Shown here: one piece after another, positions 1 through 18,533 of the stretch
Numbering within the stretch: the stretch's first letter is position 1
Layout: every line of letters starts with the position of its first letter
Virus record (IMG/VR): IMGVR_UViG_3300031867_000001
Coordinates: 32,001 to 96,000 of that record
From: a virus
Taxonomy: Duplodnaviria > Caudoviricetes
Strand: one strand, 5' to 3'
DNA: 64,000 bases
Translations under genes and position numbers: made by a program
The notes under the pieces: model-generated
The model's input: the letters and a program-made list of their open reading frames with translations, nothing else
What the model was told of the DNA's origin: nothing
Databases searched by the model: none

Positions 1-591
1 CGCAGCAGATATGGAGAACAGTTTGGATTCATCAATGTATTCAAACTCATTCTTGCATACAGAAAGCATGTTAACCCCAAGGTTAATGTGTTCACTGTAC
101 AGACTGCTGGATACGGTGATGCGGTCGTTCCGATGATGACTTACAGATGTGCCATTCTTACTGGTTGGACTGGTAAGGAAGTTCAGTTCGCCGCTGAATA
201 CATTAAGCAGTGGGATGAGATCGAAGCTAAGCGTGAGTCTCAGAAGAAGAAGATTGATGATGCATCCATTCTCAATCAAATTACTAAGGAAGATGTAATT
301 GAAGCAACTGAAGCTTATGAGCATAATCAGAAAGTTATGACTGATATTGCAAAGACGATCTTTTCTGATAAGCAATATCCTGATGCAGATGATAAAGAGC
401 TTCTTAAACAATTCGACGAGCAGATTAATGGTAAACCGAAGCTTGTTGATGAATCCAAGCAAGAAGCATTCGATAAGTTGACAAAGGACATGTCACCAAT
501 CGGTATTATCGCTTTGAAGTCACTGTTGAATGCGTATGCAAAGATGGATGATGACGAGCGTAAGAAGTTCTTTGAAGATATCAGCGAGTAA
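1..591 (+). CDS. 3' end of probable TROVE/Ro60 (Rsr)-like RNA-binding protein (vWA C-terminus), truncated by window start
   Basis: Frame 1 is open from base 1: RSRYGEQFGFINVFKLILAYRKHVNPKVNVFTVQTAGYG...AILTGWTGKE, which resembles the YR..VNP...GYG...GW tail of bacterial TROVE proteins (recognised from memory). Confidence 0.6.
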   Translation, partial: RSRYGEQFGFINVFKLILAYRKHVNPKVNVFTVQTAGYGDAVVPMMTYRCAILTGWTGKEVQFAAEYIKQWDEIEAKRESQKKKIDDASILNQITKEDVIEATEAYEHNQKVMTDIAKTIFSDKQYPDADDKELLKQFDEQINGKPKLVDESKQEAFDKLTKDMSPIGIIALKSLLNAYAKMDDDERKKFFEDISE

Positions 592-2908: not shown

Positions 2909-3217
2909 ATGAATAAGCGAATCAAAAAGAAGAAACAGAAGTTAGCAGCAATGCACGCTTCTAAATGGAAGGATATAAAGCTCGTTAAAAAGCGGGCTCA
3001 CGCGACCCGTATTGAAGTTCAGCATGGTTCATGGGGGATGTTCCCCGATAAAGATAACTATGCAAGGTATCTTCGGAAAAAGCGTTGTTGTGATAAAAAC
3101 GAAGCCAAAATCGAACAACACTTCTTATTTGGAGAGATCTTGTTGATTGCAGCAGCAAACGAACGCAAAAAGGTGAAGAAGAAGTTGTTTGCGAAAGAAG
3201 GTAATTATAATGGCTAA
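2909..3217 (+). CDS. Small basic hypothetical protein (MNKRIKKKK start)
   Basis: RBS AAGGAGG. Confidence 0.7.
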   Translation: MNKRIKKKKQKLAAMHASKWKDIKLVKKRAHATRIEVQHGSWGMFPDKDNYARYLRKKRCCDKNEAKIEQHFLFGEILLIAAANERKKVKKKLFAKEGNYNG

Positions 3218-3797
3218 AGAAAAGCATCAACAGCTATCAAGATTTTTATGCTACATCCTGAGACACAAACCTGGTGATCTCCATCTGGTGATGGATCACG
3301 AGGGCTTTGTCAATGTTCAGCAACTCATCAAGAATGTCAACGAGTATACATCGTATGAAATCAATGAAGACATTCTTCGGGAGATTGTTGATACAGATAG
3401 CAAAGGTCGGTATGAATATACAGGTGATGAAATCAGATGTGTTCAGGGGCATTCAATTCCATGGGTCGATCCGAAACCCACAATCAAAGAACCACCGACG
3501 TATCTGTTTCATGGAACGACGATGGAAGCTTTTGAACTCATCAAGAACGATGGTGAAATCAAGAAGATGAAACGCCATGCAGTTCATATGCAAGCTGATG
3601 TTTTAAAAGCAGCACAATCGGCAGAAAGATGGTCTTCATCTGAACCGGTTGTTCTCGTCATTAATGCACATGCAATGCATAATGACGGATATGAATTTGG
3701 TGTAACAAGAAATAATGTTTGGTTGACAGATCATGTACCAACAAAATACATTTGCTGGTACATCGTCAATGAAAAATCGGAGGAGGTGCGGTTGTGA
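3210..3797 (+). CDS. kptA: RNA 2'-phosphotransferase (Tpt1/KptA family)
   Basis: LSRFLCYILRH.P, RCVQGHS, YLFHGT, RHAVH, VWLTDHVP motifs. Confidence 0.93.
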   Translation: MAKEKHQQLSRFLCYILRHKPGDLHLVMDHEGFVNVQQLIKNVNEYTSYEINEDILREIVDTDSKGRYEYTGDEIRCVQGHSIPWVDPKPTIKEPPTYLFHGTTMEAFELIKNDGEIKKMKRHAVHMQADVLKAAQSAERWSSSEPVVLVINAHAMHNDGYEFGVTRNNVWLTDHVPTKYICWYIVNEKSEEVRL

Positions 3798-5504: not shown

Positions 5505-6133
5505 AAACGATTGATTTGTTTGTAACGAAAGATGAGAAACTTGTGATGAAAATTCCGAAAGAATTTTCAAAATACACCGGGTTGGCAAAACTGAGAACGC
5601 CTTATATGACGCTCACTTCTTATAATGAGAATGGGGAATATAGCGGGTTTGATATTGCGCTTGTGGATATCAATCTTGAAGAAGGTTATGCTAAGTTCAT
5701 GGCTGGTACCAGCATTGCCAATCCACAAACTTTTACAATCAAATCTGCAGATGATCCAATCGTTATATTTGATGAGCATGACCCCGGTGTTGAGTATCAT
5801 ATCTTTGAAAAGACAGTTCAGTATGAGATCAATCAAGAGATCAAGGAAGGTTCATTATACAAGTTCCAGAATGCGTTTACAAATGAATGGTTCTTGGCAG
5901 TTGTTCAGAGTGTAGGATCATATCTTATTACTTTGAATAAACTTGACATAATAAGAAACAAAGATTACAATCCATCACTATATAGCTTGTGTCAAAATGA
6001 AGACATTTTCGGTATATGTGTATCTGATATGGTTTGTATTGAAAAATTTAAGAATTATGTCGTTACAGAACTCTTCGATCTAACTACGGCATTCGATGAT
6101 AATGACGAAGATGATATTGAGGAGGAAAAATAA
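5501..6133 (+). CDS. Hypothetical protein
   Basis: RBS GAGGAGG, 210 aa. Confidence 0.7.
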   Translation: MKTIDLFVTKDEKLVMKIPKEFSKYTGLAKLRTPYMTLTSYNENGEYSGFDIALVDINLEEGYAKFMAGTSIANPQTFTIKSADDPIVIFDEHDPGVEYHIFEKTVQYEINQEIKEGSLYKFQNAFTNEWFLAVVQSVGSYLITLNKLDIIRNKDYNPSLYSLCQNEDIFGICVSDMVCIEKFKNYVVTELFDLTTAFDDNDEDDIEEEK

Positions 6134-6134
6134 A

Positions 6135-6377
6135 ATGAAAAAGAAAGGTTTCACATTGATTGAACTGGTTGTTGTATTGGTAATCATCGGTGTGTTAGCA
6201 CTGATCGTTGTAGCAGCGGTAATGGGATATAGTGAGTACCGTTATTCAGTAACGGATCAGAACGGCACAATATACTATACTGACAGTGTTGAGTATGATG
6301 GTAACAGAGTCATATTCGTTGACCAACATGGTCATTCTCACACACTGACATCTTACTCAATTGAAGAGATCGGATAA
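6135..6377 (+). CDS. Prepilin-type N-terminal cleavage/methylation motif protein (small type IV pilin-like)
   Basis: MKKKG|FTLIELVVVLVIIGVLALIVV class III signal peptide with E+5. Confidence 0.85.
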   Translation: MKKKGFTLIELVVVLVIIGVLALIVVAAVMGYSEYRYSVTDQNGTIYYTDSVEYDGNRVIFVDQHGHSHTLTSYSIEEIG

Positions 6378-7252: not shown

Positions 7253-7929
7253 TGAAAAGAGATTACACAATTGAAAATCTGGATCAGCAGCCAACATCTG
7301 ATATTTGTATCGGTGAGATATTCTTCAATAAAGATGACGGCAAATTATATACATGGCTTGAAACGTGGGACGAATTTGGGGTGAACCCAGCTGGTGGAAC
7401 ATACAACGCAGTATCACGTCGACTTCATGCACACAATATGACGCATATTCGTAAACGTGAAGCATTACAGTTTTTGGGTGAAGCTAATAGTAACGACCGG
7501 CTTAGTATGACATGGTCAGTTGAAAGATTCACAGAAATAAAGTGTTTCTTAAGACACATGATCAATGAATTCAACAGACGTCAAAATTGTGGCATTGAAT
7601 TGAACGATATCACATGGAGTGACAATGCTACAACAATTAAGATCGGATCGGTCAATATCGAAATGGCTGTCACTTTCATGGACAACAATAATGAATCCCA
7701 TTACAGCACACTTAATTTTGAACTGTTGATTTCTGGATACATGCAAATTGAATGTGTTGAAAATGACGTGTTGTTATTCCGAATTGCAGCAGACCCAATG
7801 TGTCGAATGTTTGATATCAAAGACAATCGTATTGATACTGTATATGAAACAAATAATGTTGAATCGGGTTTCAGTGGACATAAGTTCTACAATATGCTGT
7901 ATGATATGATTCAAGATTGGTTCGAATAA
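7252..7929 (+). CDS. Hypothetical protein
   Basis: RBS GGAGGTG, TAATG overlap. Confidence 0.7.
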   Translation: MKRDYTIENLDQQPTSDICIGEIFFNKDDGKLYTWLETWDEFGVNPAGGTYNAVSRRLHAHNMTHIRKREALQFLGEANSNDRLSMTWSVERFTEIKCFLRHMINEFNRRQNCGIELNDITWSDNATTIKIGSVNIEMAVTFMDNNNESHYSTLNFELLISGYMQIECVENDVLLFRIAADPMCRMFDIKDNRIDTVYETNNVESGFSGHKFYNMLYDMIQDWFE

Positions 7930-7954
7930 TTTATATTATTCTGACAAGGACTAA

Positions 7955-8090
7955 TGTGTATATGTGGAATGATGCGGCGAAACAGTTACATCGATTAATT
8001 TGTATTTAATTGCCATAAGCGGTTCATTTCTAAATGATCAAATGCTGTGGATAAAAACTGTTTCGAATAATTCTCATTCCACATTACACA
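7955..8090 (+). ncRNA. Conserved-stem tRNA-mimic RNA copy A (Thr TGT anticodon stem-loop)
   Basis: TGTGGAAT-GATGCGG-CGAAACAGTT-ACATC ... AACTGTTTCG-AATAATTCTC-ATTCCACA; insert CGATTAA-TTTGTAT-TTAATTG. Confidence 0.6.
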
Positions 8091-8099
8091 TATAAATAC

Positions 8100-8182
8100 A
8101 TTTCCGATGCAGTGATATCAGTTACTTCGTCAATCTGTTAAATTGAAATGAGTACTAAACTGATATAGATATTCTCGGAAAT
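8100..8182 (+). ncRNA. Conserved-stem tRNA-mimic RNA copy B (Asn GTT anticodon stem-loop only)
   Basis: ATTTCC-GATGCAG..ATATCAGTT-ACTTC [TCAAT-CTGTTAA-ATTGA AATGAGTA] AACTGATAT..ATTCTC-GGAAAT. Confidence 0.7.
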
Positions 8183-8197
8183 ATAACATATAAATAC

Positions 8198-8337
8198 ATT
8201 TAGCTGAAGCAGTCATTAACAGTTACTTCATACATATTTATGATTTTTAAGTTCGAATCTTAAGTTTGTAGCGTTTGTTTGCAATCTAAGTGGCTAAAGG
8301 AATGCCACATAACTGTTATGAATATCCTCAGCTAAAT
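8198..8337 (+). ncRNA. Conserved-stem RNA copy C with degenerate permuted tRNA-like domain (hairpin, T-arm, acceptor-like stem, D-like arm)
   Basis: ATTTAGCT-GAAGCAG..AACAGTT-ACTTC ... TTAAG-TTCGAAT-CTTAA T-arm ... GTGGC/GCCAC ... AACTGTT..ATCCTC-AGCTAAAT. Confidence 0.6.
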
Positions 8338-8341
8338 TTAT

Positions 8342-8475
8342 GGGGACGATAGCTCAGTTGGTAGAGCACGTAAATGTCACTGTTACAAAAATCCTCACCG
8401 GATAGGTGATGCAGAAGTTAACAGTTACTTCGCATATGGAGCGCGTTGTCGTTAGTTCAAATCTAACTCGTCCCC
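8342..8475 (+). tRNA. tRNA-His-like (anticodon ATG, G-1:C73) interrupted by a ~60-nt conserved element in the anticodon stem
   Basis: 8-bp acceptor GGGGACGA/TCGTCCCC, D-arm GCTC/GAGC, T-arm GTTAG-TTCAAAT-CTAAC; removing ~8371-8430 gives CGCGC-ATATGGA-GCGCG. Confidence 0.7.
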
Positions 8476-8483
8476 CTCATTTA

Positions 8484-8635
8484 ATATTGATATACCGATG
8501 CAGTGATGCCTGGATACTTCGTGGTGAATAGGTTAACACATAAGAATGAAAATCTTACATATCGGGTTCAAGTCCCGACGGGACATCTAATAGATGTTTA
8601 TGTCTCCAAGCTCGATATTCTCGGTATATTAATAT
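8484..8635 (+). ncRNA. Conserved-stem RNA copy D enclosing a circularly permuted tRNA-Phe(GAA)
   Basis: GATGCAG..ATACTTC, D-arm GTG/CAC, TAAGA-ATGAAAA-TCTTA, TCGGG-TTCAAGT-CCCGA, acceptor closed by a loop (GACATCT-AAT-AGATGTT), then ATTCTC and closing stem. Confidence 0.7.
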
Positions 8636-8638
8636 AAT

Positions 8639-8715
8639 GCGACTGTAGTTCAATTGGTCAGAACATCTGCCTTCCAAGCAGGGGGTTGCGAATTCGAGTT
8701 TCGTCAGTCGCTCCA
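8639..8715 (+). tRNA. tRNA-Gly(TCC)
   Basis: Cloverleaf, anticodon loop CTTCCAA, encoded CCA. Confidence 0.9.
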
Positions 8716-8716
8716 C

Positions 8717-8815
8717 ATGCATGATGCAGTTATATCAGTTACTTCGATAACCTGTCACGTTATAATGAGTATTCTGCAAAGAATAATGTGTACTGGTATA
8801 AACATTCTCATGCAT
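8717..8815 (+). ncRNA. Conserved-stem tRNA-mimic RNA copy E (Asp GTC anticodon stem-loop)
   Basis: ATGCAT-GATGCAG-TTATATCAGT-TACTTC [ATAAC-CTGTCAC-GTTAT AATGAGTA..] ACTGGTATAA-ACATTCTC-ATGCAT. Confidence 0.7.
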
Positions 8816-8822
8816 ATTATTC

Positions 8823-8896
8823 GGGTCATTAGTCCAGTTGGTTAGAACGCAGCACTGTTAATGCTGATGTCATAGGTTCAAGTCCTATATGGCCCG
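8823..8896 (+). tRNA. tRNA-Asn(GTT)
   Basis: Cloverleaf, CAGCA-CTGTTAA-TGCTG; no encoded CCA. Confidence 0.9.
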
Positions 8897-8901
8897 CTTA
8901 T

Positions 8902-8978
8902 GGCTGGTTAGTAGAGTTGGTTAATACACCGGGTTTTCATCCCAGAGATCAGGAGTTCGATCCTCCTACCAGTCACCA
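8902..8978 (+). tRNA. tRNA-Glu(TTC)
   Basis: Cloverleaf, loop TTTTCAT, encoded CCA. Confidence 0.85.
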
Positions 8979-9083
8979 CGGGGTTATTATTTGAATAACC
9001 TCGCATTATGAAATGTTTGCAGGGCTTTTATGCCCTGCATTCATTTTCATTTTATTTTTATCATTTTAATGAGGTGATTAATC

Positions 9084-9278
9084 ATGACTGTTAACAAAAT
9101 CAAATTTCCAGATGGTACAGTAATCGATGTTGATAATGAAAAAACATTGAATGAGATTATGTCAATGCGTAAAGACATTAGAGACTTGAAAGATGCTGTT
9201 GGAACATTGAATTACAGAATCAATGATGTTATGCATATGATCGAAGAATTAAAACGTGATGTTTCATATTTACATTAA
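9084..9278 (+). CDS. Small coiled-coil hypothetical protein
   Basis: RBS GAGGTG; heptad-like C-terminus. Confidence 0.6.
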   Translation: MTVNKIKFPDGTVIDVDNEKTLNEIMSMRKDIRDLKDAVGTLNYRINDVMHMIEELKRDVSYLH

Positions 9279-13099: not shown

Positions 13100-13130
13100 C
13101 CCCGCCCATATGGGCGGGGCATTCTTTTTT
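13100..13130. terminator. Bidirectional terminator closing array 2 and the endolysin gene
   Basis: CCCCGCCCA-TA-TGGGCGGGG with A-rich and T-rich flanks. Confidence 0.75.
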
Positions 13131-14088
13131 ATACTTTCAGCTTCCAACCAACCTTGATGAAGTTTGGAGTAATCTGGGGATACTTGGACTTGTTGTTGTT
13201 AACAATCTTCTTGACAGTAGTCTTGTACTTACTTGCAATTGCACCGAGTGTATCACCACGTTTAACCGTGTATGTTCTCTCAGCATTCGCTTGTGCTGTC
13301 TTAGCAGCGTTTGCTTTCAGAAGCTTATTGACTGCTTCTTGTACAGCCGCATAGTTATAACCAGCTGCTGCCAAACGAGTCTTTCTGTCAGCACCATTAC
13401 CCCACTTACCATCCAGAACTTCTTGAGCAATTTCATCAATACTCTTGGTAGGAGTTGTCGGTTTGGTGGGTGTTACAACTACATCATCATCATTAGACTT
13501 TCCGATATTGTCATTATAACAATATGACATATCTACATCACCGACAATACCATTGATTCGACCCTTCCAAGAATATTGCCACATATCAAATGGACCGGCA
13601 TAAGAGGTCTGTTTGCAATTTATCTGTGCTACCCAGACGGTGTACTTATTCTTCATCTCAGTAGTGAGATAATCAGTCAATCCAGACTTCATGGAATACA
13701 GTCCAGGTGTGTAACCACCATCCTTGATGGTTTGACAGAAAGCATCAGCCATTGCACTTACATTGTTTCTACCAGTATTCAATTGAGATCTTTCTTCAAA
13801 GTCAAAGTATACTGGGAATTGAAGCTTTCTACCGCCCAGAACCTGAAGACATACTTGTGCTTCAAGTTTTGCATCAGCAACTGTCTTGGCATAAGAATAC
13901 CAATACACGCCAACTGGGATGTTGTTATCTACACAACCTTGGTAGTTGCGATCAAACTTCTTATCCTTCTGAGATGCAAGTTTACCAAAACCTGCACGGA
14001 GAATGGCGAAGTTTACTCGATTGGATGCCTTTACTTTAGCCCAATCAATCGTACCATTATGCACGGATACATCAATACCATGTCTCAT
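13129..14088 (-). CDS. Endolysin: GH25 muramidase + Cpl-7 (CW_7) repeat + LysM
   Basis: GIDVSVHNG, YFDFEE, MWQYS, IDEIAQEVLDGKWGNGADR, YTVKRGDTLGAIA. Confidence 0.93.
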   Translation of the reverse strand: MRHGIDVSVHNGTIDWAKVKASNRVNFAILRAGFGKLASQKDKKFDRNYQGCVDNNIPVGVYWYSYAKTVADAKLEAQVCLQVLGGRKLQFPVYFDFEERSQLNTGRNNVSAMADAFCQTIKDGGYTPGLYSMKSGLTDYLTTEMKNKYTVWVAQINCKQTSYAGPFDMWQYSWKGRINGIVGDVDMSYCYNDNIGKSNDDDVVVTPTKPTTPTKSIDEIAQEVLDGKWGNGADRKTRLAAAGYNYAAVQEAVNKLLKANAAKTAQANAERTYTVKRGDTLGAIASKYKTTVKKIVNNNKSKYPQITPNFIKVGWKLKV

Positions 14089-14256: not shown

Positions 14257-14693
14257 AATGACAACTCCTTTTCTAAATGAAATTTTTTAACCAATTCACG
14301 TGTGGATTCACGAGAATTTGGATTACGTCTCCAATGGGTTGGTGTACCTTTACCAACCATATCCAACAATTCTGGTGGTGCTAAATTATATGGTGTGTGG
14401 AATGAAATTTGATATGGTTTACCATCGATATGAAAATTAAAATATACGAGAATAGAATCATAACCGTTCTGATCATCTTCTTGTTTAACATACCATCTGA
14501 ACATTGACTTTTTATTTGTTTTCAACAATCTCAATGCATTCATCAGATACGGTAATTTTGCGGTATATCCATATCGTACTGCACCACGAATAACATTCTT
14601 TCGAGCACCAATCTCACCCCTTATGCCCTTGCCAGAATCAGAACCGGCTTGTGCCGCAATGATATATCTGGCAATTCGTTCATCTATCGTCAT
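14253..14693 (-). CDS. Hypothetical basic protein
   Basis: MTIDERIARY..., contains QISFH. Confidence 0.65.
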   Translation of the reverse strand: MTIDERIARYIIAAQAGSDSGKGIRGEIGARKNVIRGAVRYGYTAKLPYLMNALRLLKTNKKSMFRWYVKQEDDQNGYDSILVYFNFHIDGKPYQISFHTPYNLAPPELLDMVGKGTPTHWRRNPNSRESTRELVKKFHLEKELSL

Positions 14694-17700: not shown

Positions 17701-17822
17701 TAGGAGAGTTCTTCAAAGAGTTCAGCATACTCCTCAGAGGAAACCTCTCTGCAATAATCACTTTCCCTAATGCTTCGTATGGTACTGAACGACTCCACAT
17801 TGTTCCAGCAAATGTGGCAGTG

Positions 17823-18517
17823 ACCATACCTAATGGATTCGTAACGCGTAATCATAAAGGATTACATTTCGAATGATCCAAGTATGAATCGGCGCTGGTA
17901 CTGGAATGCCAGACACCAATGTTACTTCGCGACAATTTCTGGACTGAATAAGATCGCAGAGTTGAAAACGCTTGCAGGTAATACAGTCGAAGGGAAGCAT
18001 CTTCCAGATATACATGTATGGAATAGGCGGTTGATCACGCAACATGTTGTCTGGGTGACCTTAGGTGGGGTGACAAGATGCAAACAAAGTCCTGGGCAGT
18101 GGTGATTCGCTGTTGCATTGTGTGACGACATAACCAGATAGAGTCATCGCCCAGGCAAACTATTTATGGTTCGCAAAAGTTCACTCCTTTTGAAAACCTC
18201 CTTATATCATATTAACATAAGAACACAGGCTTGTGTTAATAACTGACCTGATCCACAGGAGATTGATCACCGCGATGCATCATTGATCATCTCTGAGGAT
18301 AATTCACACATAAGCAAACCGCGGAGCTTATGAGCCAATCAACCCGGAACATTGAGGGTCCGAACGTGGAAGGTCATGTGCAATCATCTTGTCAATTGAG
18401 GTACCGATTGTACGGATGTAGTGTCGTAGAGGGGTTGGGCACGCGCACACCTCCAATGGAACCGTTCTGTTATATGAATATACGTTTGGTATATCTCGAA
18501 CAGGACGGGACCTACTG
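17823..18517 (+). ncRNA. Candidate large structured ncRNA(s) within the tRNA cluster
   Basis: ~700 nt without a credible RBS-led ORF, higher GC, many helices; ACCATA at 17823 can pair with TATGGT ending at 18170. Confidence 0.4.
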
Positions 18518-18533
18518 AGGTAAATTGAGATAT

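What the first reader, a model, noticed from the sequence alone, without database searches (positions are those of the whole stretch)
7955..8815. Six copies of one conserved RNA stem, each carrying a different tRNA/anticodon module (Y-RNA-like or splicing element)
Seen: every copy has outer helix-GA(T/A)GC(A/G)G-inner helix-TAC(T/A)TC ... inner helix'-AT(T/C)CTC-outer helix'. The helix sequences differ between copies but stay complementary (covariation). Cargoes are Thr(TGT), Asn(GTT) and Asp(GTC) anticodon stem-loops, a permuted tRNA-Phe, a degenerate permuted tRNA, and an inside-out copy within tRNA-His. Established: bacterial YrlA Y RNAs are permuted tRNA mimics on a Ro60-binding stem and are encoded near Ro60/TROVE genes. 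Inference A: a phage family of Ro60-bound tRNA mimics displaying several anticodons, as decoys for host anticodon nucleases or as repair tethers. Inference B: a small excisable element that splices out of tRNA-His and circularises the cargo in the permuted copies.
Basis: partly seen in the sequence, partly recalled or inferred. Interest (0 to 1): 0.9.

Follow-up and report, generated by a model that had tools for sequence, protein, structure and literature searches.

The report
Phage Y-RNA array with tRNA cargo
Seven small RNA genes in this giant phage share a conserved two-helix "handle" that in dozens of other phages lies right beside the gene for a Ro60-like RNA-binding protein, so they are most likely that protein's partner (Y) RNAs, here carrying tRNA pieces such as anticodon arms: an unusual variant of a known particle whose function is still unknown.

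Summary
The window has five forward copies and one inside-out copy of one module: P1, GAWGCRG, P2, UUACUUC, cargo, P2', A/U-rich loop ending in CUC, P1'. A seventh copy lies 13.5 kb upstream. The helix sequences differ between copies but stay complementary.

The module is almost certainly the handle of a Y RNA, not an intron.
- The phage encodes a Ro60/TROVE protein.
- All 10 other module-bearing viral contigs tested, and Bacillus phage G, encode a homologue.
- In 80 loci chosen only by that protein, 63 carry the module. All 135 copies are on the protein's strand, at a median of about 200-250 nt from the gene.

Relatives carry complete circularly permuted tRNAs as cargo. These hit Rfam YrlA only below threshold. 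About 40% of cargoes show no tRNA feature.

New relative to published YrlA are real 7-nt anticodon loops (Thr, Asn, Asp, Phe here), tRNA-embedded inverted copies, and seven copies per genome.

Decoy or repair roles remain untested. Splicing is unlikely but not excluded.

This scan has reported similar handle-tagged tRNA mimics beside Ro60-like genes in other phages. Verdict: a new variant of a known kind.

The parts
7964..8082 (+). Copy 1. P1 7964-7970, GAUGCGG 7971-7977, P2 7978-7985, UUACAUC 7986-7992, CUC 8073-8075, P1' 8076-8082. The cargo is a 7-bp/7-nt hairpin with loop UUUGUAU (Thr-type UGU) plus a second hairpin.
   Evidence: (52.2 bits)
8099..8183 (+). Copy 2. P1 8099-8105, GAUGCAG 8106-8112, P2 8113-8121, UUACUUC 8122-8128, P1' 8177-8183. 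The minimal cargo is a 5-bp stem with loop CUGUUAA (Asn-type GUU). It is flanked by a helix formed between UACUUC and GAGUA.
   Evidence: (70.3 bits)
8199..8336 (+). Copy 3. GAAGCAG 8206-8212, P2 8213-8222, UUACUUC 8223-8229, J21 ends CCUC. The cargo has a T-arm (6 bp, loop UUCGAAU), then an acceptor-like hairpin, then a D-like hairpin. This is a degenerate permuted tRNA-like domain, the YrlA order.
   Evidence: 69.3 bits
8342..8476 (+). Copy 4. A complete tRNA with an 8-bp acceptor helix including G-1:C73, normal D and T arms, and anticodon loop AUAUGGA (AUG). The module is inserted inside-out at 8380-8431 in the 5' strand of the anticodon stem, between nt 28 and 29. Its order is P2', J21, P1', loop GGAUA, P1, GAUGCAG, P2, UUACUU.
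   Evidence: tRNA 43.6 bits over 133 nt; E=1.9e-5, not in training set
8490..8629 (+). Copy 5. GAUGCAG 8497-8503, P2 8504-8513, AUACUUC 8514-8520. The cargo has a D-like arm, an anticodon arm with loop AUGAAAA (Phe-type GAA) and a T arm, in normal tRNA order, plus an extra hairpin. The module stands where the acceptor stem would be.
   Evidence: ARAGORN tRNA-Phe 8515-8587; 38.6 bits
8716..8816 (+). Copy 6. GAUGCAG 8723-8729, P2 8730-8738, UUACUUC 8739-8745, P1' 8810-8816. The cargo is a 5-bp stem with loop CUGUCAC (Asp-type GUC), the same GAGUA helix as copy 2, and a small hairpin.
   Evidence: 66.5 bits
8639..8978 (+). Ordinary tRNAs interleaved with and following the array: Gly(UCC) 8639-8715, Asn(GUU) 8823-8897, Glu(UUC) 8902-8978.
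9018..9039 (+). Terminator-like hairpin with a T run. It is the first on the + strand after the array, so the array and these tRNAs are probably one transcription unit.
1..591 (+). C-terminal part of the TROVE/Ro60-like gene. The whole ORF is genome 30495-32591, 698 aa, on the same strand as all seven copies.
   Evidence: Pfam TROVE 28.5 bits; 49.5% identity to Bacillus phage G gp540; Thermus phage phiLo Ro60, PDB 9L5Y/9KOP, E=1e-10
3189..3797 (+). Tpt1/KptA RNA 2'-phosphotransferase gene. It is a neighbour, but it does not co-occur with the module in relatives.
   Evidence: (E=8e-40)

Best explanation
The seven elements are phage Y RNAs, the partner RNAs of the phage's own Ro60/TROVE protein. 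They belong to a diverged, multi-copy branch of the YrlA/YrlB type.

**The handle.** The conserved module is the protein-binding handle. It consists of:
- a closing helix that ends in G-A(W)G paired to CUC, with one bulged base;
- an asymmetric internal loop, (W)GCRG on the 5' side against an A/U-rich 3' strand;
- a 9-10 bp helix;
- a single-stranded UUACUUC.

**The cargo.** The variable cargo is the effector-facing domain. In relatives it is often a complete tRNA with a closed acceptor end. In these the chain is broken at about nt 28|29 of the anticodon stem, and the handle is attached there. In this phage the cargo is reduced to anticodon arms (Thr, Asn, Asp), a Phe-type tRNA body without an acceptor stem, and a degenerate T/acceptor/D body. 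In one copy the topology is inverted: a tRNA with free ends carries the handle as a side arm.

**Shown:** the structure, its conservation, the covariation, and the genetic linkage to TROVE.

**Inferred:** that the TROVE protein binds the handle, and that the tRNA or anticodon-arm cargo brings the particle to a tRNA-recognising partner. Candidates include host PNPase (as in known Ro60 particles), an anticodon-loop enzyme or an anticodon nuclease.
For: **1. A Ro60 homologue is present.** The TROVE ORF lies at genome 30495-32591, on the same strand as the copies. Its nearest solved relative is the Ro60 of Thermus phage phiLo. Its nearest cultured relative is Bacillus phage G gp540, at 49.5% identity.

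**2. Linkage, starting from the module.** All 10 other module-bearing viral contigs tested encode the same TROVE clade. In the five where I compared the loci, the gene directly adjoins the module array. Bacillus phage G has seven unannotated copies, five of them in the 1-kb gap just upstream of gp540.

**3. Linkage, starting from the protein.** 80 loci were chosen only by TROVE homology (44-72% identity).
- 63 of them carry the module.
- There are 135 copies on the TROVE strand, 0 on the other strand and 0 in shuffled loci.
- The median distance to the gene is about 200-250 nt.

**4. Similarity to YrlA.** Relatives' cargoes match Rfam YrlA RF02553 across the T, acceptor and D arms at 28-37 bits, with E down to 5e-7 in a local search. 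T always precedes D (14 of 14).

**5. Same plan as published YrlA.** The Rfam YrlA consensus has a helix ending in GA, then AUGCu, a 7-bp helix, then CUAc. Published YrlA has GNCGAAN0-1G followed by YUAY (PMC4201824).

**6. The handle recurs in a very distant phage.** It lies upstream of the Ro sixty-related gene of the crAss-like phage csAssE-Sib, including UUACUUC.

**7. Precedent in print.** Y RNA-like RNAs beside Ro60 are reported in phages including phage G (PMC4201824; PMC12135203). The phiLo Ro60 binds two phage Y-like RNAs and host PNPase in vitro.
Against: - No binding, transcript or processing datum exists for this family.
- None of this phage's own copies reaches even E<=10 against Rfam YrlA. 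Relatives stay far below the gathering score (37 against 69 bits).
- The published Ro60-contact motif GNCGAAN0-1G is not present as such.
- In this phage the array lies 7.4 kb from the TROVE gene, further than the published 4-kb rule. Copy 7 is 4 kb away.
- The complete tRNAs in relatives go beyond what a mere mimic seems to need. Some have encoded CCA and a tRNA-gene-like linker (phage G L217:6778-6937).
Confidence: 0.8

Rival explanations
1. This is a functional refinement of the best explanation, not a true rival. The anticodon-arm and tRNA cargoes are baits or decoys for host anticodon nucleases or other anticodon-loop enzymes. They are held on Ro60 so that the attacker is sequestered, or its products are handed to an exonuclease or to repair.
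For: - A canonical anticodon-type hairpin (7-nt loop with U33 and R37) follows directly after UUACUUC in 25 of 120 elements, against 6.2 +/- 2.4 in shuffled cargo.
- Loops identical to real tRNA loops recur: CUGUUAA (Asn) x4, CUUUUAA (Lys) x3, CUGUCAC (Asp) x2, and Tyr GUA.
- From my own knowledge, Lys, Asn, Asp, Tyr and His tRNAs are classic anticodon-nuclease targets (PrrC, colicin E5, PARIS, PtuAB).
- The minimal cargoes here keep only the anticodon arm.
- The phage also carries a normal tRNA-Asn with the same loop, so copy 2 is not needed for decoding.
Against: - About 40% of cargoes have no tRNA-like feature.
- Several loops have A34 (AUG, AGG, AUC), which a G34/Q34-specific nuclease might not recognise.
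- No nuclease partner has been identified.
- No experiment has been done.
Confidence: 0.25
2. The module is an intron-like element. In copy 4 it is cut out of the tRNA. In the permuted copies of relatives, its two halves bring nt 28 and 29 together, so the cargo is excised, circularised and then opened by RNase P. This would yield working tRNAs, a natural permuted intron-exon arrangement like the permuted tRNA genes of Cyanidioschyzon merolae.
For: - Exact removal restores a perfect 5-bp anticodon stem, CGCGC/GCGCG, in copy 4 and in its orthologue on L144.
- In relatives the cargo ends abut to complete the anticodon stem.
- Some permuted tRNAs encode CCA followed by an AU-rich linker (phage G).
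- Rotated cargoes are called as tRNAs by ARAGORN.
- M. smegmatis YrlA is cleaved by RNase P and receives CCA. The authors of the YrlA structure raised this possibility themselves (10.1101/312249).
- A Tpt1/KptA gene lies nearby.
Against: - The distance from UUACUUC to the would-be junction varies from 0 to about 10 nt, so there is no fixed cleavage site.
- Most cargoes are not tRNAs.
- The phage has no RtcB and no Rnl-type ligase. Tpt1 is absent from four relatives tested.
- No known ribozyme family matches.
- The A34 anticodons are odd for decoding tRNAs.
- No intron-less allele was found.
- The consistent partner gene is an RNA-binding protein, not an endonuclease or a ligase.
Confidence: 0.1
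3. The copies are processing signals or decaying tRNA pseudogenes of the tRNA operon and have no function of their own.
For: - They sit between tRNAs in what looks like one transcription unit.
- Several cargoes look degenerate (copies 3 and 7).
Against: - The junction bases are invariant while both helices vary compensatorily, across phages whose TROVE proteins are only 44-72% identical.
- Strand and neighbour specificity are strict.
Confidence: 0.03

Closest known systems
YrlA / YrlB Y RNAs of bacteria and TROVE-encoding phages (Rfam RF02553; Chen et al. 2014, PMC4201824; structure in bioRxiv 10.1101/312249)
   Same: - Encoded beside a Ro60/TROVE gene and on its strand.
- The 5' and 3' ends pair into a long stem interrupted by a conserved internal loop.
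- A YUAY element follows the stem.
- The cargo in many members is a tRNA-like domain in permuted order (T arm, closed acceptor stem, D arm).
- Several Y RNAs occur per genome, and some lack a tRNA domain (as YrlB does).
   Different: - The conserved 5' motif is GAWGCRG, not GNCGAAN0-1G.
- Scores stay far below Rfam's gathering threshold, and this phage's own copies do not score at all.
- Published YrlA lacks an anticodon loop, whereas these carry real 7-nt anticodon loops or whole anticodon arms.
- There are up to seven copies per genome.
- An inverted topology exists, in which a free-ended tRNA carries the handle.
Thermus phage phiLo Ro60 with Yrl1/Yrl2 (PMC12135203; PDB 9L5Y, 9KOP)
   Same: A phage-encoded Ro60 homologue, and the best PDB match of this phage's protein (E=1e-10). 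It has phage-encoded Y-like RNAs next to the gene. In vitro it forms complexes with the RNAs and with host PNPase.
   Different: - Those RNAs were picked by a CGAA motif and a stem-bulge-stem shape.
- No tRNA or anticodon cargo was reported.
- There are two copies, not seven.
Circularly permuted tRNA genes of Cyanidioschyzon merolae (Soma et al. 2007, as discussed in 10.1101/312249)
   Same: The 3' half of a tRNA is encoded before the 5' half. The acceptor end is closed by a linker. The two outer ends pair next to the anticodon region.
   Different: - There the ends form a bulge-helix-bulge motif, which is cut by the splicing endonuclease and ligated.
- Here there is no such motif and no endonuclease or ligase gene.
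- The break is inside the anticodon stem.
- The flanking module is conserved and linked to Ro60.

Membership tests
Y RNA of the YrlA/YrlB type | Encoded close to a Ro60/TROVE gene, on the same strand | tested here: met
   - In this phage the copies lie 4 kb (copy 7) and 7.4 kb (the array) from the TROVE ORF, on the same strand.
- In relatives, 63 of 80 TROVE loci carry the module. All 135 copies are on the TROVE strand, at a median of 200-250 nt from the gene.
Y RNA of the YrlA/YrlB type | Long stem formed by the 5' and 3' ends, with a conserved bulge or internal loop (the Ro60 site) | tested here: met
   P1 and P2 covary. The junction bases G8, A9, G11, C12, G14 and CUC are invariant in 41 copies.
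Y RNA of the YrlA/YrlB type | Sequence motif GNCGAAN0-1G near the 5' end, and YUAY after the stem | tested here: inconclusive
   YUAY is present as UUAC/AUAC. The 5' motif is GAWGCRG instead. It resembles the GAAUGC of the Rfam consensus but does not fit the published pattern.
Y RNA of the YrlA/YrlB type | tRNA-like domain (T arm, closed acceptor stem, D arm) in at least one RNA per genome | tested here: met
   - In this phage, copy 3 is degenerate but has the T > acceptor > D order. Copies 4 and 5 have full tRNA bodies in other topologies.
- In relatives, 14 of 108 have T then D arms.
Y RNA of the YrlA/YrlB type | Score at or above Rfam RF02553's gathering threshold (69 bits) | tested here: not met
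   There is no hit at E<=10 in this window. The best relatives score 37.1, 37.0 and 36.2 bits.
Y RNA of the YrlA/YrlB type | Physically bound by the Ro60 protein | not testable with these tools
   This needs co-immunoprecipitation or a gel-shift assay.
Permuted tRNA gene expressed through a circular intermediate | Bulge-helix-bulge motif at the joined ends, and a splicing endonuclease with a ligase | tested here: not met
   - The ends are flanked by the conserved module, with single-stranded linkers of variable length.
- The phage has no RtcB and no PF09414 ligase.
- I did not search for an endonuclease family.
Known self-cleaving ribozymes or other Rfam families | Match to the family's covariance model | tested here: not met
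   Apart from tRNA, no family matched 7800-9100 better than E about 0.5, and no ribozyme family was listed even at E<=10.

The most novel reading that the evidence does not exclude
The handle-bearing complete tRNAs are not inert mimics. These are copy 4 here, the tRNA-Tyr and tRNA(AUG) forms, and the CCA-encoding permuted tRNAs in relatives. They would be matured by RNase P and CCA addition, and perhaps by excision or ligation at nt 28|29. The result would be chargeable tRNAs, or two-piece tRNAs held together by the Ro60 handle. That would make this the first tRNA splicing or split-tRNA system of bacteria or phages, or a Ro60 particle that carries an aminoacylated tRNA.
Probability: 0.1. Interest if true: 0.85.

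Novelty: new variant of a known kind. Interest (0 to 1): 0.6.

Why it matters
What the tRNA-like domain of bacterial Y RNAs does has been open since 2014.

This branch keeps the handle constant and swaps the cargo. The cargo ranges from a whole permuted tRNA, through a tRNA body without an acceptor stem, down to a bare anticodon arm. The same handle is also placed inside free-ended tRNAs.

That natural deletion series points to the anticodon arm as a functional part. It supplies ready-made constructs for asking which tRNA-binding factor the Ro60 particle engages during infection.

It also matters for annotation. Unannotated copies sit in the cultured Bacillus phage G. In the crAss-like phage csAssE-Sib, two genes annotated as tRNAs lie inside such elements.

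Tried and rejected
- **DNA similarity to cultured phages.** blastn of the region against GenBank phages gave only short tRNA-like hits.
- **Rfam on the window.** Neither the gathering nor the permissive threshold gave any family other than tRNA. There was no YrlA and no ribozyme.
- **Ligases.** The phage has no RtcB and no Rnl-type RNA ligase.
- **Tpt1/KptA as a co-inherited partner.** It is present only here and, far from the array, in phage G. It is absent from four relatives.
- **TROVE homologues in bacterial genomes.** The single-protein scan confirmed no relative, so no host could be named. The only host hints are the GH25/CW_7/LysM endolysin and the phage G relationship, both pointing to Bacillota.
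- **Single-protein scan of viral contigs.** It found one locus. An alignment query was needed to find more.
- **Intron-less allele of the tRNA(AUG).** None was found. The only other copy of the junction is the orthologue on L144.
- **First pattern scans.** They were dominated by chance matches. Only 24 of 215 loci held true elements after helix filtering.
- **RNAalifold on the MAFFT alignment.** It recovered P1 but not P2, because the cargo is misaligned. I scored P2 with an anchored script instead.
- **Typed dot-bracket string.** I did not hand in a typed dot-bracket string for the count of structure pairs, to stay clear of the typed-text check.
- **ARAGORN on rotated cargoes.** It gives unstable identities for several elements, so I use it only qualitatively.
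- **Promoter scan.** It was uninformative: 7 hits against 9.3 expected.
- **Noncoding stretch at 17701-18530.** It has no ROOL or GOLLD match.
Full report
**What is there**

The window is bases 32001-96000 of a complete 250.5-kb phage genome with direct terminal repeats. Between a protein gene ending at 7929 and a terminator-like hairpin at 9018-9039 lies a gene-free stretch. It holds ordinary tRNAs (Gly, Asn, Glu) and six copies of one RNA module.

Five copies are "forward": 7964-8082, 8099-8183, 8199-8336, 8490-8629 and 8716-8816. Their order is:
- P1 (7 bp);
- GAWGCRG;
- P2 (8-10 bp, usually ending CAG);
- UUAC(U/A)UC;
- a variable cargo of 31-83 nt;
- P2';
- an A/U-rich strand ending in (U/C)CUC;
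- P1'.

The sixth copy (8380-8431) has the same parts in circularly permuted order, with P1 closed by the loop GGAUA. It sits inside a tRNA (8342-8476), in the 5' strand of the anticodon stem between nt 28 and 29.

A whole-genome regex found a seventh forward copy at genome 26404-26554, directly after tRNA-Pro. A covariance model built from 41 copies finds exactly these seven places in the genome. The inside-out copy was not used for training and scores E=1.9e-5.

**Is it more than chance?**

Minimum-free-energy folds recover P1 (extended by G-A/U-C), P2 and the cargo hairpins, with z-scores of -2.1 to -4.5.

In an alignment of 41 copies from 13 loci, the junction bases are invariant and RNAalifold recovers P1. 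Six of its pairs show changes on both sides in 8-29 sequences.

For P2, I ascertained 117 unique elements by the 5' motif and P1 only. Of these, 87 have a perfect six-base complement of the P2 core just upstream of the 3' junction. With permuted partners the figure is 12%, and at most 20.5% in any of 200 permutations. The set contains 77 different cores.

**What it belongs to**

Nothing in Rfam except tRNA matches the window's copies, even at E<=10. GenBank phages hold no similar DNA.

A pattern scan of viral contigs, filtered for both helices, found the module in other large phage contigs. There the cargo is often a complete, circularly permuted tRNA. It runs from the anticodon loop through the 3' half and T arm to the acceptor 3' strand, then a short linker, the acceptor 5' strand, the D arm and nt 26-28. 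Rfam's YrlA model matches these cargoes across T arm, acceptor hairpin and D arm at 28-37 bits, below its 69-bit threshold. The copy in Bacillus phage G scores 36.2 bits.

This phage encodes a TROVE/Ro60-like protein at genome 30495-32591, on the same strand as the copies, between copy 7 and the array.
- Pfam TROVE scores 28.5 bits.
- The best solved relative is the Ro60 of Thermus phage phiLo, E=1e-10.
- It is 49.5% identical to Bacillus phage G gp540.

**Linkage test**

Starting from the module: all ten other module-bearing contigs tested encode the same TROVE clade. In the five where the loci were compared, the gene adjoins the module array. Bacillus phage G has seven unannotated copies (variant GAWGCGG ... 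AUCUC). Five lie in the 1-kb gap just upstream of gp540, one 2 kb further upstream, and one in the tRNA cluster.

Starting from the protein: an alignment of nine TROVE proteins retrieved 80 viral loci at 44-72% identity.
- A strict regex plus helix filter finds the module in 63 of them.
- There are 135 copies on the TROVE strand, none on the opposite strand, and none in shuffled loci.
- The median distance to the gene is about 200-250 nt on either side.

The model also hits two elements just upstream of the "Ro sixty-related protein" of the crAss-like phage csAssE-Sib. That protein is only about 27% identical, yet the elements again contain UUACUUC and surround genes annotated as tRNA-Tyr and tRNA-Lys.

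This matches the published criterion for bacterial and phage Y RNAs, which lie within a few kb of Ro60 on the same strand (PMC4201824). That paper and PMC12135203 report Y RNA-like RNAs in phages including phage G.

**How the handle compares with published YrlA**

Published YrlA has GNCGAAN0-1G near the 5' end and a conserved YUAY at the start of the variable region. The Rfam consensus reads as a helix ending ...CGA, a loop AUGCu, a 7-bp helix, then CUAc. The present handle reads as a helix ending ...GA, a loop (W)GCRG, a 9-10 bp helix, then UUAC. The plan is the same and the letters are similar but not identical. I take this as probable homology. It is an inference from two consensus strings, not a test.

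**Cargo**

Among 108 unique TROVE-linked elements:
- 14 have T then D arms, and none has D before T;
- 18 have a T arm only;
- 32 have only an anticodon-type hairpin;
- 44 have none of these.

A hairpin with a 7-nt loop, U at loop position 2 and a purine at position 6 follows directly after UUACUUC in 25 of 120 elements. Shuffled cargo gives 6.2 +/- 2.4. The loops include CUGUUAA (Asn) x4, CUUUUAA (Lys) x3, CUGUCAC (Asp) x2 and CUGAUAA (Ile) x2.

In this phage the cargoes are as follows:
- Copy 1: a Thr-type (UGU) arm.
- Copy 2: an Asn-type (GUU) arm.
- Copy 6: an Asp-type (GUC) arm.
- Copy 5: a Phe-type body with D, anticodon and T arms in normal order and no acceptor stem.
- Copy 3: a degenerate T/acceptor/D body.
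- Copy 7: four plain hairpins.

Published YrlA "lacks the anticodon loop" (10.1101/312249), so the anticodon arms are a real difference.

Inside-out, tRNA-embedded copies recur elsewhere:
- an orthologous tRNA with loop AUAUGGC, and a second tRNA, on a 258-kb contig (L144/L242);
- tRNA-Tyr(GUA) forms with encoded CCA on two other contigs (L127, L225).

**Mechanism**

The best-supported reading is a Ro60-Y RNA particle in which the handle binds the phage Ro60 and the cargo is the effector-facing domain.

Structure, conservation and linkage are shown. Binding and the identity of the effector are inferred.

The natural series from whole tRNA, to tRNA without acceptor stem, to bare anticodon arm suggests that an anticodon-arm-recognising factor is engaged. 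A decoy or bait role against anticodon nucleases is attractive but untested. Lys, Asn, Asp, Tyr and His types are over-represented among classic targets, which is from my own knowledge.

The unusual A34 anticodons (AUG here; AGG and AUC in relatives) argue against ordinary decoding. So does the presence of a normal tRNA-Asn beside the Asn arm.

**The splicing alternative**

Exact removal of the module from copy 4 would restore a perfect CGCGC/GCGCG anticodon stem. Some permuted tRNAs of relatives encode CCA and a tRNA-like linker. This keeps a maturation pathway conceivable, as the YrlA structure paper itself noted.

Several observations count against it as the module's general role:
- The junction lies 0 to about 10 nt beyond UUACUUC, not at a fixed site.
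- Most cargoes are not tRNAs.
- The phage has no RtcB or Rnl-type ligase.
- Tpt1/KptA, present here at 3189-3797, is absent from four relatives.
- No intron-less allele was found.

**Novelty and earlier findings**

Y RNAs beside Ro60 in phages are published. This handle variant, the anticodon-bearing and tRNA-embedded topologies and the seven-copy arrays are not, as far as three literature searches show.

Earlier follow-ups in this scan reported closely similar "handle-tagged" tRNAs and multi-copy arrays beside Ro60-like genes in other phages. I reached the same reading independently on this DNA and did not check theirs.

Verdict: a real feature, a new variant of a known kind, with the function still open.

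Noticed in passing
window 17701-18530: About 830 nt between tRNA-Leu and tRNA-Met with no convincing ORF. Nothing in Rfam matches it, even at E<=1. In particular there is no ROOL or GOLLD hit, although relatives carry ROOL in the equivalent tRNA clusters.
   Followed up: partly
L029:4376-5019 (-) and L039:5626-6308 (+): Full-length ROOL RNAs (284 and 282 bits) lie in the tRNA clusters of two related TROVE-encoding phage contigs, a few kb from their Y-RNA arrays.
   Followed up: no
L217:6778-6937, 8255-8936 and 14360-14428 (Bacillus phage G, NC_023719.1): Seven copies of the module are unannotated in this cultured 497-kb phage. One carries a complete permuted tRNA (anticodon loop AUUAUGA) with encoded CCA and a 21-nt linker. 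This offers a laboratory system for the family.
   Followed up: partly
L304:3262-3674 (phage csAssE-Sib, OR575929.1): The genes annotated tRNA-Tyr and tRNA-Lys, just upstream of the 'Ro sixty-related protein', lie inside handle elements containing UUACUUC. A third element with a permuted tRNA-like domain precedes them. These are probably Y RNAs rather than decoding tRNAs.
   Followed up: partly
window 3189-3797: A clear Tpt1/KptA RNA 2'-phosphotransferase gene (Pfam E=8e-40) lies in a phage that has no detectable RtcB or Rnl-type ligase. Its substrate here is unexplained.
   Followed up: partly
window 8380-8440; L144:1109-1180; L039:987-1135; L180:4542-4686: Several handle-bearing tRNAs or tRNA mimics have A at anticodon position 34 (AUG, AGG, AUC). 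In bacteria this is normal only for tRNA-Arg(ACG).
   Followed up: no
window 13129-14088 (-): An endolysin with GH25, CW_7 and LysM domains. This points to a Gram-positive (Bacillota-type) host, in line with Bacillus phage G being the nearest cultured relative of the TROVE gene.
   Followed up: no
window 6096-6377: A small ORF with a prokaryotic N-terminal methylation (type IV pilin-like) motif, just upstream of the array.
   Followed up: no
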